Positions 7,058-59,354 are shown, counted from the stretch's first letter. The stretch is 64,000 nucleotides of DNA from Eledone cirrhosa (GCA_964016885.1 OZ024742.1:41664001-41728000), one strand, 5' to 3'. Notes: generated by a model from the letters alone, not told the origin. Translations and numbers: made by a program.

Positions 7058-7211
7058 GATGAATATAAGTCAATAGAGTGCTCAACCGAGGGGGACAAAT
7101 AGTAATAATAATAAATTTGAAGACTAAAATCCAAAGAGGGCTCGATAAGGATAAATATATATCAAATATATAAAAACCGTAGAGCAAATATTTATTAAAA
7201 TAACAGATTAA

Positions 7212-7262
7212 AGTTTAAGCAAAGAATCGCTGCTTTCACCCTTAACGGGATCTTCTGAAACT
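7212..7262 (-). ncRNA. Hammerhead-like motif in the 5' pLTR of PLE-A (U4A core)
   Basis: AGTTT-CAGAAGA-tCCC gttaa GGGt-GAA-AGCA gcgattctt TGCT-T-AAACT. Confidence 0.7.
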
Positions 7263-7599
7263 AACAAAGTCAATTGTGAACGCAGAAGTGAATATTTCAA
7301 AAAACGTTGCAACCGAAGGAATACAGGAAGGCGATACTTTGGGTCATGGAAACGTTCCCTGGCAAAGAACGGGAAAAAACGAATATAATACGTCATTAAT
7401 AGGAGCGGTGAAAAACAATTACACGCAAAGACAAAACCACGCTTATGGAGTAAAAGAAGTCGTAGACTAATATTCTATTAGGTGGTTCATAGAGACGTTC
7501 TCTGGCAATGAACGGAAAAAACGAAGATAATACGTCAAATGTGGAGCGTAGAGAACAATTGCACGCAAAGACAAAACCACGTAAATGGTATAACCGAAT

Positions 7600-8690
7600 C
7601 AACTACTACATAATGCTGTAACTAAGGATTACCGTAAGCTAATCGGTGCGTCATCAATGAAATCAACGATGCTGGGTTTAAAACCACATCTGATCTCAAC
7701 ATCCTGGACCGGACCGAACCTCTGGACCCTATTTCTCCCCACTTTACCCTGAAGGATCACAAATCCAATTTTCAGAACAACCCCTCTATTCGGCTTATTA
7801 ACCCTACGAAGTCCGATTTAGGTAGACTTAGTAAAACGATTCTTGATAGAATTATACCTGAAATTAGAGTTTTGCGTCTGTGTGAGTATGCAGGTTCGTA
7901 CGTATGTAGGGTGTGTGTATATGTGTACTTCATGTTTTGGTTGACTTACGTCTCCGAACATTTGTGTATTTACATGTAGGAATGTGTGTGCCTTTGTTAT
8001 ATACGTATTTATTTATTTATATACGTTCATTTAATTATTTATTTATTTGTATACACGCACACACACACACACACACACACACATATTTATATGTGCGTGG
8101 TTTTGTATACCTATGGTAAGTGTTTTCGCGTATGCTTGTGTATATGCGTATTTGTATGCGTGTATGTATCTATTTAATTTCTATTACCTCTGTATTGTAT
8201 TTATTTACTTTATTCTTAACTCTGAAGCGGAGATTCATTCGGTCTCCTAGTTAGAATTTTAGTCTACGACTTCTGCTATACCATTTACGTGGTTTTGTCT
8301 TTGCGTGCAATTGTTCTCCACTCTCCACATATGACGTATTATCTTCGTTTTTTTCGTTCATTGCCAGAGAACGTCTCTATGAACCACCTAAGAGAACATT
8401 AGTCTACGACCTCTTTTATACCATAAACGTGGTTCTGTCTTTGCGCGTAATTGTTTTTCACCGCTCCTATTAATGACGTATTATATTCGTTTTTTTTCCC
8501 CGTTCTTTGCCAGCGAACGTTTCCACGAACCAAAGTATCGTCTTCCTATCTTCCTCCGGTTGCAACGTTTTTTTTAAATATCCACTTCTGCGTTTACAGA
8601 TTGACTTTGTTAGTTTCAGAAGATCCCGTTAAGGGTGAAAGCAGCGATTCTTTGCTTAAACTTTAATCTGTTATTTTAATAAATATATAT
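7600..8690 (+). mobile_element. Inverted, internally deleted copy of PLE-A fused to its 5' end
   Basis: 7600-7870 is the reverse complement of ~6405-6672 (RT); 7870-8690 is the reverse complement of ~3760-4710 (3' UTR and pLTR). Confidence 0.9.
8612..8662 (+). ncRNA. Hammerhead-like motif (PLE-A family, U4A core, CUU site)
   Basis: agtttCAGAAGAtcccgttaagggtGAAAgcagcgattctttgctTaaact; all three stems pair. Confidence 0.7.
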
Positions 8691-8918
8691 ATATATATAC
8701 AATATTAAATAAATGGAAACTATATTTATAAAACCATATTTATTTCATTATATATATTTCAGGGATAACATATTAACAATATGCTATGCCGTTTCGGACG
8801 ATAGATAGATATTTGTCGAGTGCTTTTATATCAGTTATAAATATTTACTAGTTGTAACACAACAATTTAAATATAACTTTCCATATATATATATATATAT
8901 ATATATATATATATATAT

Positions 8919-55914: not shown

Positions 55915-56236
55915 CTATTGTTTTTGTGCATCATGTGGCCATTCAAAATCCTTTTCTCAGAGAATGATTTACCACAGATATCTAAATATGGTCACTTACC
56001 TGTGTGAACAGGTCTGTGATGATTTAAATTCTGATTATCAGAGAATGATTTTCTACAGTTTTCTCAATGATGTGGTCTCTCACTTGTATGAACAGATTTC
56101 TGATGATTTAAATTCTATCAGAGAATGATTTACTACGAGCATCACAACTGTATAGCTGTTCACCTGTATGAATATGAAGTATTAAATAACTTCTCAGTGA
56201 AAAAGATTTACCACAGGTATCACAGTGAAATAGATT
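55915..56236 (-). pseudogene. Decayed zinc-finger repeats beyond the stop codon
   Basis: Reading on past TAG gives [40 protein letters not shown], then more broken fingers ending KSFSEKRILNGH. Confidence 0.8.
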
Positions 56237-57865
56237 CTAACCAGTGTGAATACGTACATGTTGAATTAATTCGTCTCTCTGAGAGAACGTCTTACCACAG
56301 ATATCACAGTTGCATGGATTCTGAACTGTGTGAACTCGTTTGTGAATATTCAACTTATTACCTACAGAGAAGGTTTCCCCACAGACATCACATTGGTATG
56401 GTTTCTCACCTGTGTGGATACGCTTATGAACAGTTAAATTACTTCTGTCAGAGAATGTTTTCCCACACATATCACAGTGGTATGGTTTCTCACCTGTGTG
56501 GATACGCTTATGAACATTCATACTACGCCTTTCAGAGAATGCTTTCCCACAGGTATCACAATGGTATGGTTTCTCACCGGTATGAATACGTACATGATCA
56601 GTTAAATGACTTTTCCGAGAGAATGTTTTATCACAGATATCACAGTGGTGTGGTTTCTCTCCTGTATGCATACGTATGTGTTGAGTTAATTGAACAGTTT
56701 GAGAGAAAGTTTTACCACAGATGTCACAGTGGTGTGGTTTCTCATCTGTGTGACTGTGTATGTGTGTAGATAATGTACTATTGTCAGTGAATGTTATTCC
56801 ACAGATATCACAATGGAATGGACTCTCATCTGTGTGAACCTGTTTATGAATAATTAACCTATTACCTACAGAGAAAGTTTCCCCACAGATATCACAGATG
56901 AATGGTTTCTCACGAATATGGATACGTTTATGAACAGTCAAATTACTTCCTACAGAGAATGTTTTCCCACAGGTATCACATTGGTATGGTTTCTCACCTG
57001 TGTGGATACGTTTATGAACATTCATAGTACGCCTTTCAGAGAATGATTTTCCACACACATCGCATTGGTATGGTTTCTCACCAGTGTGGATACGTACATG
57101 TTCTGTTAAATGATGTTTGCGAAAGAATGTTTTACCACAAGTATTACAGTGGAATGATTTTCCTCCAGTGAGATCGTGTTTGTGTGTAATTAATCTACTA
57201 TTGTTAGAGAATGTCTTCCTATAGACATCACATTGGGATAGTTTCTCTCCTGTTTGAACTTGTTTATGAATAGTAAGCTTTTTATATTCGGAGAATGTTT
57301 CCCCACACACATCACAGTGGAATGGTTTCTCATCATCATGGGTGCATACATGTTGAATTAAATTACTTTTCCAAGAAAATGTTTTCCTACAAATATCACA
57401 GTTGAATTGTTTCTCACTATTGTGGGTATGTACATGTCCAGTTAAATGGCTTTTCCGAGAGAATGTTTTACCACACACATCACAGTGGTATGGTTTTTCA
57501 CCAGTGTGCATACGTTTGTGTCTAGTTAATGAACTATTGTCAGGAAATGTTTTTACACAGACATCACAATAGTAAGGTATATCTCCTGTGTGTACTCGTT
57601 TGTGAATAGTTAACTTATTACATTTGGGAAAAGTTTCTCCACAGATATCACATTGATATGATTTCTCTCCTGTGTGAATACGTTTGTGAACAGTCAAATT
57701 ACTTCTTAGAGAGAATGCTTCTCCACATACATCACATTGGTATGGTTTCTCACCAGTGTGGATACGTACATGCTCAGTTGCATGACTTTTCCGAGAGAAG
57801 GTTTTGCTACAGATATCACAATTGAATGGCTTCTCACCAGTGTGAGTAAGTTCAAAATCTGTCAT
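56237..57865 (-). CDS. Poly-C2H2 zinc-finger protein, 19 finger repeats (17 intact)
   Basis: 542-aa ORF of tandem C2H2 fingers; repeats 7 and 8 have lost ligands; splice acceptor at 58069. Confidence 0.88.
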   Translation of the reverse strand: MTDFELTHTGEKPFNCDICSKTFSRKSHATEHVRIHTGEKPYQCDVCGEAFSLRSNLTVHKRIHTGEKSYQCDICGETFPKCNKLTIHKRVHTGDIPYYCDVCVKTFPDNSSLTRHKRMHTGEKPYHCDVCGKTFSRKSHLTGHVHTHNSEKQFNCDICRKTFSWKSNLIQHVCTHDDEKPFHCDVCGETFSEYKKLTIHKQVQTGEKLSQCDVYRKTFSNNSRLITHKHDLTGGKSFHCNTCGKTFFRKHHLTEHVRIHTGEKPYQCDVCGKSFSERRTMNVHKRIHTGEKPYQCDTCGKTFSVGSNLTVHKRIHIREKPFICDICGETFSVGNRLIIHKQVHTDESPFHCDICGITFTDNSTLSTHIHSHTDEKPHHCDICGKTFSQTVQLTQHIRMHTGEKPHHCDICDKTFSRKSHLTDHVRIHTGEKPYHCDTCGKAFSERRSMNVHKRIHTGEKPYHCDMCGKTFSDRSNLTVHKRIHTGEKPYQCDVCGETFSVGNKLNIHKRVHTVQNPCNCDICGKTFSQRDELIQHVRIHTG

Positions 57866-58523
57866 GTTATCTTTTCAGAAAATGTTTTCCCAGAGATATC
57901 ACAGTTGTATATTTCTATAACCTCAATTAACATATCACCAACATAATCAAGGTTTATAGTGCACTGTTATTTGAGGTCTTGGTAATTTCAGGTTTCTGGT
58001 TTGAAAATCTGACAAACTTCTTGATATATCTTGAATCAACAATTACCATCTTGATGTCACCACAAACCCTGAAATAAAAAAAATATATGGTGGAAATCAT
58101 AATGAACAGTTAACATAAAGATTATTAGAGAGACAGGACTTAACTAGAGACATTGAATGTTATAATATAAAAGATCAGAAAATATCTAGAGGAAAGATAC
58201 AACAGTATGGATATGTAGTATAAATATATGATGAAATGTGTGTGTGATGGACTTTAGAAAGATGTTTATAACAGAAACAGTTAAATATAAACATATTTAG
58301 TAATCAACCAATAATGGTTGTTAAAATATACAAACTATAAACATATTTTTATTTAATTATTTTCTATTAACACATGTTTAATCGGAGATGTTACACACGA
58401 GAAACTACAAATATCGACGGGATGCAGGTGGAATTAGTTTAATGGGAATTTTTTTTAAAGTCCGTTCTACACAAGATAAACCGTGTGTGTGTGTGTGTGT
58501 GTATATATATATATACTGGGGTT

Positions 58524-58580
58524 ACCCTCGAAAAGGCTTGCCGACTACAAGCCGAAACCGCTATACGTTGTGGTAGGGGT
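58524..58580 (+). ncRNA. Hammerhead-like motif with U3-A8 core, GUA site
   Basis: CCC-TCGAAAA-GGCTTG ccgacta CAAGCC-GAA-ACCGC tatacgtt GTGGT-A-GGG, beside a (TG)n(TA)n tract. Confidence 0.68.
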
Positions 58581-59354
58581 TTAATCTTTCTTTATACCCA
58601 GACTATTTCCTCCCGTGCATCGAGTACTACCCGATTTGTGGTCTCCCCGGCAGCGTAGACTTTATATATATAGACTATATATTGAGATAAAAATTTACTG
58701 TGGAAGTCCAAAATATATGGAGACTAACTACAAATTGATTTGGTTGAAATGGCACTCAACTGACAAAAAGAGAATAACAATGGAGGGAAACATTAGAACA
58801 ATGTCACAATTAATAACAAATACCTCAATGTCACCATGAATAGTGGTGGTAAATAGTTTGTAAAATTCAACATTACTGGTGTTTACAATTTGTAACGAAC
58901 AGCTCACCATCAATAGACTGGGTTGCTGTTACTGTAGAGATGTTAACATTAGAAATACTAAAACAACATATTTTAATAACATATCGACTTACTGTGAGTC
59001 TTCCTCACTATTTAGTGAAATAATGTTGACAGGTGAATGAATCTGTGAATGTTAACAAACAAAATATTTTTATAGCCATAGTCAATAAAACGTACATAAT
59101 AACACTGTTATGTAAACGTAAATAATCTAATAATCAGCCGTACTTTCGTAAAAAAAACTTTATTTGCAGTTATCTACATTTTGTATTGTTGTATCCAAAG
59201 ATACGGTGTACGTAAAACCACTGTTGTGCAAATATATTTATGTAGTCGATGGAAAGGAGCCTCTTGGTCTTAGCCTTTGTCCTTGGGCTAGAGATAGATG
59301 TCTGATAGGGGACGTCACTCTCAGGGACTCTTTAGTTCCTTCTCACTCTCAAAC

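What the first reader, a model, noticed from the sequence alone, without database searches (positions are those of the whole stretch)
7070..58630. Shared YYGAGCACTY motif downstream of the ribozymes in unrelated families
Seen on the element sense strand: GTTGAGCACTCT just before the PLE-A ATG (~7075-7087, minus) and the PLE-C ATG (~29588-29600, minus), each with a second upstream copy (TCGAGCCCTCT, TAGAGCACTCT). Variants: TTGAGTACTTT (16908), TTGAGCACTTT (21961), TTGAGCCCTCT (34827), TTGAGTGCTAC (34155), TCGAGCGCTCT (26823), TCGAGTACTAC (58620), TTGAGCACAC (20983). It lies tens to ~200 nt 3' of the HHR and near the (TA)n junction. Inference: a cis signal read by the PLE RT or endonuclease and copied by the non-autonomous families. 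I do not know of a description of it.
Basis: partly seen in the sequence, partly recalled or inferred. Interest (0 to 1): 0.75.

Follow-up and report, generated by a model that had tools for sequence, protein, structure and literature searches.

The report
Copy-start hairpin of Penelope elements
The shared motif is real: it is one arm of a small hairpin that Hydra-type Penelope-like jumping genes carry a few bases behind the points where their DNA copies end, so it likely tells their telomerase-related enzyme where to start copying.

Summary
The core observation holds. GTTGAGCACTCTA is identical in two Penelope-like elements (PLE-A, PLE-C) with unrelated flanks. It occurs 3794 times in the 3.0-Gb genome against 5 for a reversed control.

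The motif is the 3' arm and flank of a short hairpin, GCTC(T/C)-loop-(A/T)GAGC-ACTCT. In three families, sampled copies end at two fixed alternative sites: 16 and 13 of 30, 19 and 10 of 30, 18 and 12 of 30. The hairpin starts 4-9 nt behind such sites. This matches the PLE "tail" and internal initiation of reverse transcription shown for Poseidon_Ac (PMC11167929).

The same hairpin stands at the matching places in published Hydra-clade consensi from a sea cucumber and a coral, with a variant in a crustacean (PMC8557442, File S7).

Three parts of the finding are weaker:
- The hammerhead link holds for two of the ribozyme families in the window. PLE-A and the abundant non-coding family F2 show no canonical hammerhead.
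- Four or five of the listed "variants" are at chance level or unresolved.
- The carriers are Hydra-type relatives or their dependants, not unrelated families.

The function is inferred; no RNA data were available. Other follow-ups in this scan reached the same reading on other pieces of this genome (e1-8673755, e1-9528365).

The parts
7073..7100 (-). PLE-A 5'-terminal block (beta element). The unit junction is 7101|7100 and the 13-mer GTTGAGCACTCTA is at 7087-7075. ATG is at 7057-7055. In this copy the 5' arm is mutated (GTCCCCC where most genomic copies have GGCTCCC).
7136..7145 (-). TCGAGCCCTC, about 35-45 nt before the PLE-A 3' terminus. It is an alpha-like remnant without a 5' arm. The same string is at 3705-3714 (-) and 22245-22254 (+) in other PLE-A 3' ends.
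3664..3680 (-). PLE-A 3' terminus, ...TTATTATTACT|(TA)n. Of 30 sampled genomic copies, 28 end here.
29711..29734 (-). PLE-C alpha hairpin, GCTCTG-TTACCTACA-TAGAGCACT. It starts 4 nt behind the short terminus t1 (29739|29738). The long terminus t2 is at 29672.
29588..29600 (-). PLE-C copy of the 13-mer GTTGAGCACTCTA, 32 nt before the ATG (29556-29554).
35291..35442 (+). PLE-C-type 3' stub with tail. The hammerhead core starts at 35291 and t1 is at 35375. The alpha element carries TAGAGCACTC at 35395-35404 (its 5' arm is mutated to GGTCTG). t2 is at 35442 next to (TA)n.
34923..35007 (-). PLE-C-type stub that ends at t1 (34923) with no tail and no motif. A second such stub is at 25644-25728 (-).
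39839..40025 (+). PLE-B 3' end. The hammerhead is at 39839-39864 and t1 at about 39922-39925. The alpha hairpin GCTCTGTTTAATTACATTGAGC is at 39930-39951. t2 (...AATCCTT) is at about 40024 next to (TA)n.
21944..21969 (+). Alpha-type hairpin inside the short non-coding family F7 (GCTCTGGTTTTTAACTATTGAGCACT). The diverged inverted copy is at 20328-20357 (-). Here the hairpin is internal, about 100 nt before the 3' terminus.
34807..34835 (+). Alpha-type hairpin of a relative of F7 (GCTCTGGTTCATCCAAACTATTGAGCCCT).
26825..26847 (-). Beta-type hairpin GCTCCGGGAACTTGTCGAGCGCT. The element it belongs to was not resolved.
58620..58629 (+). TCGAGTACTA beside a zinc-finger gene array. It has no 5' arm and is judged a chance match. 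I judge 34155-34164 (+) and 20980-20989 (-) the same way. 16909-16918 (-) and 2564-2573 (-), in family F3, are unresolved.

Best explanation
The motif is the 3' arm and flank of a short GCUC...GAGC hairpin that starts 4-9 bases behind the fixed ends of Hydra-clade Penelope-like elements and their non-coding dependants, and it is likely the RNA signal that positions the element's reverse transcriptase for internal initiation of copying.

What is shown:
- The elements are C-terminal GIY-YIG PLEs that insert in (TA)n.
- Their genomic copies end at two alternative fixed sites, t1 and t2. The stretch between them is an optional 'tail' of 75-130 nt.
- A hairpin of type alpha (GCUCUG-loop-AUAGAGC-ACUCU) follows t1.
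- A hairpin of type beta (GCUCC-loop-GUUGAGC-ACUCUA) follows t2, at the 5' end of the next or full-length unit, 20-70 nt before the ATG.

What is inferred:
- On a tandem or read-through transcript the PLE protein binds the hairpin and starts cDNA synthesis just 5' of it, so the hairpin itself is left out of copies that start at that site.
- Non-coding families (F2, F7 and the ribozyme stubs) are copied because they carry the same hairpin.
For: 1. The 13-mer is shared by PLE-A, PLE-C and F2 with unrelated flanks. Genome count is 3794 against 5 for the control. The 30 loci split into 10 PLE-A and 20 F2.

2. Two alternative termini appear in samples anchored away from the motif:
- PLE-B: t1 16, t2 13, read-through 1, of 30.
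- PLE-C type: t1 19, t2 10, read-through 1, of 30.
- F2: 18 without and 12 with the 75-nt extension, of 30.

3. A GCTC...GAGC pair starts 4-9 nt behind PLE-A t2, PLE-B t1, PLE-B t2, PLE-C t1 and F2 t1. It is the minimum-energy fold in each case. Only 0.3% of window positions are followed within 20 nt by such a pair.

4. The loops differ in sequence among the sampled copies and in length among families, while the arms stay the same. About 26 of 30 alpha copies are followed by a microsatellite 40-48 nt later, which is t2. These 30 were chosen by the arm pattern, so the constancy of the arms there is by construction; among copies of one family it says little.

5. Published Hydra consensi (PMC8557442, File S7; six sequences read by eye):
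- Hydra-1_Ajap begins with the alpha hairpin and has a beta copy about 25 nt before its ATG.
- Hydra-2_Ajap and Hydra-2_Amil have the alpha hairpin after the hammerhead and a TA-rich junction.
- Hydra-1_Crog has a variant at both ends.

6. Published mechanism (PMC11167929, main text read): Poseidon_Ac RT starts internally at two adjacent sites in a stem-loop, the tail is the stretch between them, and the protein-binding region spans the start sites.
Against: - There are no RNA or biochemical data. The only runs found were DNA-like unitigs.
- The stem is only 4-5 bp and its arms never vary, so there is no covariation support for pairing (by eye).
- In F7 the alpha hairpin is internal. None of 30 copies end just before it; about 27 of 30 run on about 100 nt to the terminus.
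- PLE-A shows one terminus only: 28 of 30 end there, 2 of 30 read through into the next unit, and 0 of 30 carry a tail.
- In F2 the exact 13-mer lies on the strand opposite to the inferred RNA. F2's polarity is itself inferred from truncation patterns.
- One F2 subfamily (2 of 12 extended copies) has a degenerate motif.
- After PLE-C t2 the 3' arm is imperfect (GAAGC).
- Hydra-1_Amil and Hydra-1_Obim show only degenerate versions.
- Five of 10 PLE-A copies that carry the 13-mer have their 5' end within about 15 nt of the junction. This also fits an RNA 5' end, that is a promoter, at that place.
Confidence: 0.5

Rival explanations
1. The beta copy, and perhaps the alpha copy, is an internal promoter or 5'-UTR element. 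Transcription would start at the unit junction, and the block at about +10 to +27 would be carried along so that each new copy can be transcribed or translated.
For: - In PLE-B the block overlaps an inverted CCAAT (GATTGG) and is followed 9 nt later by TATATA, then by the ATG about 45 nt further on.
- Five of 10 PLE-A copies with the 13-mer begin within about 15 nt of the junction.
- Three PLE-B copies without a direct pLTR begin at ...ACTGCTCCC.
- Penelope and Chlamys-3_cRei have an internal promoter at the pLTR/5'-UTR boundary (PMC8557442, passages).
Against: - Alpha copies sit in non-coding 3' stubs and tails with 12449 genomic matches.
- In F2 the element is at the 3' end of the inferred RNA.
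- The distance from the terminus to the 13-mer ranges from 15 to 45 nt across families, which is loose for a core-promoter element.
- The alpha sequence is kept in a mollusc-type genome, a sea cucumber and a coral, with a variant in a crustacean, which I would not expect of a host-specific promoter. That expectation is my own judgement.
Confidence: 0.2
2. It acts as double-stranded DNA. The quasi-palindrome TWGAGYRCTCWA in the tail would be the site that the dimeric PLE endonuclease recognises, steering new insertions into existing copies and so building tandems and pLTRs.
For: - The core GAG-YR-CTC reads nearly the same on both strands. This would explain why F2 can carry it inverted.
- PMC11167929 reports that the Penelope EN needed the tail for recognition (citing Pyatkov 2004). 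It also reports that PAc is predicted to be a dimer and cuts both strands.
Against: - Nearly all sampled insertions lie in (TA)n, not in other copies.
- The spacing between the GCTC and GAGC arms varies from 5 to 19 nt. That suits a hairpin loop better than a duplex site for a dimer.
Confidence: 0.1
3. There is no function of its own. The block would be inherited similarity among related Hydra-type families, plus chance matches for the loose variants.
For: - All clear carriers are Hydra-type PLEs or their short derivatives.
- The loose pattern is only 25 against 10 expected before repeats are removed.
- At least four listed variants lack the second arm.
Against: - Flanks differ between PLE-A, PLE-C and F2, and loops differ between families, while 13 of 13 bases or both arms are kept.
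- The same block is in consensi from other phyla whose other non-coding sequence shows no similarity visible by eye.
- Its position behind the termini recurs.
Confidence: 0.1
4. It is an RNA element that serves the hammerhead, for example in folding, dimer formation or circularisation of the ribozyme-bounded RNA.
For: - In PLE-B, PLE-C, Hydra-2_Ajap and Hydra-2_Amil it lies about 50-90 nt 3' of the ribozyme core.
- The PAc hammerhead needs protein to cleave.
Against: - PLE-A and F2 carry the motif without a canonical hammerhead.
- Four hammerhead cores (three or four families) in the window lack the motif.
- I saw no complementarity between the motif and the ribozyme strands.
Confidence: 0.05

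Closest known systems
[quoted passage not shown] 2024, PMC11167929; main text read)
   Same: Both show two adjacent alternative start sites seen as two classes of genomic 3' ends, an optional tail between them, a stem-loop at the start region, and a tandem or read-through RNA as template.
   Different: - In Poseidon_Ac the start lies 111-118 nt inside the ORF in an AC-rich stem-loop. Here it lies in untranslated sequence beside a GCUC/GAGC hairpin with a conserved ACUCU flank.
- The tails here are 75-130 nt, against 30-40 bp there.
- Here the hairpin comes twice (alpha and beta).
- Nothing was tested biochemically here.
Hydra clade of C-terminal EN+ PLEs (Craig et al. 2021, PMC8557442; Hydra section, passages and File S1/S2/S7 read)
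   Same: The window's elements share the clade's marks: (TA)n insertion, DKT in place of DKG, an RW(K/R) motif, a CxCX5C linker, a C-terminal GIY-YIG domain and canonical hammerheads. The published consensi carry the same hairpin.
   Different: In the parts I read, the paper describes protein motifs, hammerheads and the target preference. It does not describe this non-coding hairpin or the two-terminus pattern of Hydra elements.
Metazoan non-LTR retrozymes as PLE dependants (Cervera and de la Pena 2020, PMC7229834, passages; Li et al. 2026 preprint 10.64898/2026.07.22.740005, abstract and section 14)
   Same: Both are short non-coding ribozyme-bearing repeats related to PLE pLTRs.
   Different: - Those papers rest on the hammerhead and on pLTR similarity; no shared start signal is named in what I read.
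- F2 and F7 here have the hairpin but no canonical hammerhead.
SINE/LINE pairs with shared 3' tails, and R2 3'-UTR recognition
   Same: A non-autonomous element borrows the RNA feature that the partner's reverse transcriptase recognises.
   Different: - In those systems the signal is inside the copied 3' end. Here the hairpin lies beyond the start site, so copies that start at that site do not contain it.
- The PLE enzyme is closer to telomerase RT.

Membership tests
Hydra-clade Penelope-like element | [quoted passage not shown] | tested here: met
   The PLE-B ORF 35373-38120 has YRDD and a C-terminal ...IVYACVV...YIGST... stretch, read by eye. Pfam gave no hit at E<=0.01.
Hydra-clade Penelope-like element | DKT in place of DKG, an RW(K/R) motif, and a CxCX5C linker | tested here: met
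   Read by eye. PLE-B has ADKTKNLY, KRIRWRAF and CNCRVSANC. PLE-C has SDKTKNLF. The criteria come from PMC8557442 section 11.
Hydra-clade Penelope-like element | Insertion into (TA)n | tested here: met
Hydra-clade Penelope-like element | Canonical hammerhead in the 3' region or pLTR | tested here: inconclusive
   Cores are present in PLE-B and PLE-C type elements. None was found in the PLE-A pLTR at E<=5. Permuted forms were not tested.
Hydra-clade Penelope-like element | Placement in an RT phylogeny with the published Hydra families | not tested
   The published proteins were read only in the supplement.
PLE tail / internal RT-initiation signal (as in Poseidon_Ac) | Two adjacent alternative 3' termini among genomic copies, with an optional tail between them | tested here: met
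   PLE-B 16 and 13 of 30; PLE-C type 19 and 10 of 30; F2 18 and 12 of 30. Not seen for PLE-A (0 of 30 with a tail) or F7.
PLE tail / internal RT-initiation signal (as in Poseidon_Ac) | Stem-loop at the initiation site | tested here: inconclusive
   A 4-5 bp hairpin is predicted 4-9 nt behind five termini. The arms are invariant, so there is no covariation.
PLE tail / internal RT-initiation signal (as in Poseidon_Ac) | RT start sites mapped on RNA, and protein binding to the region | not testable with these tools
   This needs purified protein or RNA-end data. No RNA run was listed.
PLE tail / internal RT-initiation signal (as in Poseidon_Ac) | AC-rich stem-loop inside the ORF | tested here: not met
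   Here the sites lie in untranslated sequence and the stem is GCUC/GAGC.
Non-LTR retrozyme | Tandem short repeats, each with a type I hammerhead | tested here: not met
   F2 and F7 show no hammerhead (by eye). The PLE-B and PLE-C stubs are dispersed single 3' ends in (TA)n.

The most novel reading that the evidence does not exclude
The GCUC...GAGC-ACUCU hairpin is the template-recognition element of a whole PLE clade. It would be a telomerase-style boundary and anchor signal, kept since before molluscs, echinoderms, arthropods and cnidarians split. It would fix where a telomerase-related RT begins copying inside a longer RNA. Any RNA that carries it next to a TA-rich stretch would then be written into (TA)n tracts, which would account for the more than 12,000 tail-bearing stubs and for the F2-type parasites in this genome.
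Probability: 0.35. Interest if true: 0.8.

Novelty: new variant of a known kind. Interest (0 to 1): 0.6.

Why it matters
How PLE enzymes choose their template and start site is known from a single in-vitro study of one Poseidon element. A short, sequence-defined hairpin that marks both start sites across a whole clade would give three things:
- a directly testable recognition signal for a telomerase-related reverse transcriptase;
- an explanation of why these elements make tails, stubs and tandem pLTRs;
- a rule for annotating tens of thousands of otherwise puzzling short repeats in (TA)n tracts of marine invertebrate genomes.

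Tried and rejected
- **RNA evidence.** The look-up of sequencing runs listed no RNA holder, only three runs of one sample and study, of unknown kind and kept as contigs. Laying them gave short unitigs (about 80-135 nt among those listed) at very high depth, as DNA repeats do. No starts, ends or strand could be read.
- **Rfam at gathering score.** No match in the window.
- **tRNA-like or Pol III A-box reading of GGCTCCCTCGGTTGAGCAC.** I considered this by eye only. 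The F2 loci gave no tRNA hit inside the element, and a 3.4-kb T-rich PLE is an unlikely Pol III product. Dropped.
- **5S-rRNA box-C likeness of the F3 site TTGAGTACT.** This rests on recalled sequence and was not tested. Left unresolved.
- **HDV-like or other ribozyme at the 5' end.** No such Rfam hit among those listed at E<=5.
- **Motif at the 5' end of F2 RNA.** This was my first reading of F2. I rejected it after anchor sampling: the motif-bearing end is the fixed end, the other end is truncated at varying points, and inverted forms have both outer ends at the two fixed sites.
- **A tail for PLE-A.** I looked for one and found none (0 of 30).
- **A terminus just before the F7 hairpin.** I looked for one and found none (0 of 30).
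- **Earlier-findings look-ups.** The look-up by place and by sequence returned nothing.
- **Literature.** I found no description of this hairpin in print. Searches were. I read the PMC8557442 Hydra section plus passages, the PMC11167929 main text, PMC7229834 passages, and the 2026 preprint's abstract and section 14. bioRxiv supplements were not opened, and the supplements of PMC11167929 were not read.

Full report
**What is in the window**

The window lies in a 3.0-Gb animal genome. It is rich in (TA)n and in retroelement debris. Three related Penelope-like elements are present:
- PLE-A, minus strand, unit about 7100 to 3670.
- PLE-C, minus strand, ATG at 29556.
- PLE-B, plus strand, ORF 35373-38120, 5'-truncated at a (TA)n.

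Their N-termini are homologous (...KNIP.PS...Y.K.LI...KR.RW.A...). [quoted passage not shown] These are the marks of the Hydra clade as given in Craig et al. 2021 (PMC8557442, section 11). That section also states that nearly all Hydra families insert in (TA)n.

**Check of the observation**

All the quoted strings exist.

| Pattern | Where | Found | Expected or control |
|---|---|---|---|
| YYGAGCACTY | window | 3 | 0.42 |
| THGAGYVCWH (holds every listed variant) | window | 25 | 10.0 +/- 3.0 |
| GCTC-N4-20-GAGCVCT | window | 7 | 0.23 |
| GTTGAGCACTCTA | genome | 3794 | 5 (reversed control) |

The loose count of 25 includes repeat copies and palindromic double counts. So the loose list is weak by itself. 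What rescues the finding is the long exact block and its second arm.

The 30 loci fetched for the 13-mer fall into two families whose flanks differ right up to the block:
- 10 are PLE-A 5' ends.
- 20 are a short non-coding family, here called F2, with three subfamilies.

PLE-C in the window is a third context. A search for the 13-mer followed by A or G gave 54 hits. These were mostly mutated PLE-A or F2 copies plus a few likely chance hits.

**Where the motif sits**

In PLE-A the upstream pLTR (7099-7598) equals the 3' end (3668-4166). The 3' end is ...TTATTATTACT followed by (TA)n. At the pLTR the same string is followed by ATTTGGCTCCCTCGGTTGAGCACTCTA...ATG. So the block begins 5 nt behind the junction between one unit's 3' end and the next unit's 5' end.

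An anchor in the PLE-A 3' end has 15,379 genomic matches. Of 30 sampled copies, 28 end at that terminus and 2 read through into the block and ORF.

Full-length PLE-B copies have this layout: hammerhead, about 190 nt...TATTTTAATCCTT | GTCACTGCTCCCGATTGGTTGAGCTTCCTCC...ATG.

**Two termini and a tail**

I sampled copies using anchors that do not include the motif.

| Family | Anchor | Short end (t1) | Long end (t2) | Read-through |
|---|---|---|---|---|
| PLE-B | hammerhead | 16 of 30 (...TTTTCATAA) | 13 of 30, about 130 nt further (...AATCCTT) | 1 of 30 |
| PLE-C type | hammerhead region | 19 of 30 (...TTACATAACTA) | 10 of 30, 87-89 nt further | 1 of 30 (into the PLE-C ORF) |
| F2 | internal | 18 of 30 (...TTTTCCATATTA) | 12 of 30, with a further 75 nt | not applicable |

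Some F2 loci are the two arms of one inverted insertion, so the 30 are not all independent.

This is the 'tail' pattern of PLEs. Frangieh et al. 2024 (PMC11167929) showed for Poseidon_Ac that:
- the RT starts internally on a multi-copy transcript at two adjacent sites in a stem-loop;
- the tail is the stretch between those sites;
- the RNA needed for activity spans the start sites.

**The motif is a hairpin arm**

Behind each terminus comes a GCTC...GAGC pair:

| Site | Sequence after the terminus |
|---|---|
| PLE-A t2 | ATTTG GCTCC CTCGGTT GAGC ACTCTA |
| PLE-B t1 | CTTCG GCTCT GTTTAATTACATT GAGC TATAC |
| PLE-B t2 | GTCACT GCTCC CGATTGGTT GAGC TTCC |
| PLE-C t1 | TTAA GCTCT GTTACCTACATA GAGC ACTCT |
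| F2 t1 (inferred RNA strand) | TCATACTCT GCTC AGAAG GAGC ATAGAGT |

The pair is in the minimum-energy fold in all five cases. Only 0.3% of window positions are followed within 20 nt by such a pair.

The alpha pattern GCTCTG-N8-16-WGAGCACTYT has 12,449 genomic matches against 5 for the control. The loop sequence varies among the sampled copies. About 26 of 30 sampled copies are followed 40-48 nt later by a microsatellite, which is t2. These 30 were chosen by the arm pattern, so they cannot show that the arms are conserved.

**Other phyla**

I read the six Hydra consensi of PMC8557442 File S7 by eye:
- Hydra-1_Ajap (sea cucumber) begins CC-GCTCTG-...-CATAGAGCACTCT. It has GCTCC-...-GTCGAGCACTCTC about 25 nt before its ATG.
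- Hydra-2_Ajap has the hammerhead, a TA-rich junction, then TAG-GCTCTG-...-CATAGAGCACTCT.
- Hydra-2_Amil (coral) has the hammerhead, then AGCTCT-...-ATTGAGCACTGT.
- Hydra-1_Crog (sea louse) has a variant, GAGG(G/T)GCACTTTT, at both ends.
- Hydra-1_Obim and Hydra-1_Amil show only degenerate forms.

So 3 of 6 are clear, 1 is a variant and 2 are degenerate. I did not run these sequences through any tool.

**Against the reading, and limits**

- The arms never vary, so there is no covariation.
- In F7 (21944 and 20357 in the window) the alpha hairpin is internal. None of 30 copies end before it.
- PLE-A shows no tail.
- In F2 the exact 13-mer is on the strand opposite to the inferred RNA. The RNA strand has its own bulged hairpin (ACUCU-GCUC...GAGC-AU-AGAGU).
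- F2's polarity rests on three things: the fixed ends against the variable ends, inverted forms whose two outer ends are the two fixed sites, and a CRE/CCAAT-like far end. It does not rest on RNA data.
- Two of the 12 extended F2 copies have a degenerate motif.
- The hammerhead link is partial.
- The promoter rival keeps real weight. PLE-B's beta block overlaps an inverted CCAAT and precedes a TATATA. Half of the PLE-A copies with the 13-mer begin within about 15 nt of the junction.

**Comparison and novelty**

The behaviour matches the PLE tail and internal initiation known for Poseidon_Ac. The sequence, the place (untranslated, not inside the ORF), the twin alpha/beta layout and the spread across the clade are not in what I read or found. 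I rate it a new variant of a known kind.

After I had reached this reading, a look-up showed that two earlier follow-ups of this scan, on other pieces of the same genome, came to the same reading (e1-8673755, e1-9528365). Those are unchecked notes and not independent evidence. The counts here are my own.

Noticed in passing
L020, L023, L009 and window-independent loci L061-L090: F2 is a non-coding family of about 240-415 bp in (TA)n. Its internal 15-mer has 6603 genomic matches. Many copies are inverted two-arm insertions whose outer ends are the two fixed termini. In the inferred RNA sense the far end has TGACGT and CCAAT strings.
   Followed up: partly
window 16807-17611 and 2462-2706; L009, L074, L201: In family F3 the last 60 nt or so before (TA)n occur in either orientation in different copies (flip/flop-like). 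That stretch carries GGCTTGAGCTCTGCC. Its relation to the Hydra hairpin is unclear.
   Followed up: no
window 19284-19355 (+), 48354 (-), 41871 (-), 32784 (-): Hammerhead-like cores of other families have no motif downstream. They may belong to other PLE clades or to retrozymes.
   Followed up: no
window 49751-51019 (-) and 56237-57874 (-): There are two long C2H2 zinc-finger arrays of 14-17 fingers each. They are about 70% alike at the DNA level.
   Followed up: no
window 42377-44631 (+), 46075-46917 (+), 47384-48094 (-): Non-LTR retrotransposon remnants are present: RVT_1 with zf-RVT, RT followed by a PHD finger, and a weak endonuclease/exonuclease/phosphatase match.
   Followed up: no
window 9205-11235 (-): An open frame of 677 aa has no Pfam match at E<=0.01.
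   Followed up: no
window 12393-13604 and 15183-15349: A tandem satellite-like array with many internal repeats at 80-90% identity.
   Followed up: no
L093, L099, L115 (PLE-B) and L004, L018, L019, L025, L027 (PLE-A): Copies that lack a direct upstream pLTR begin within a few to about 15 nt of the unit junction. This hints at an RNA 5' end or a copying stop there.
   Followed up: partly
L242-L270: Just before t2 the tails carry a second small hairpin, TTTCC-NNN-GGAAA, whose loop varies between subfamilies.
   Followed up: no
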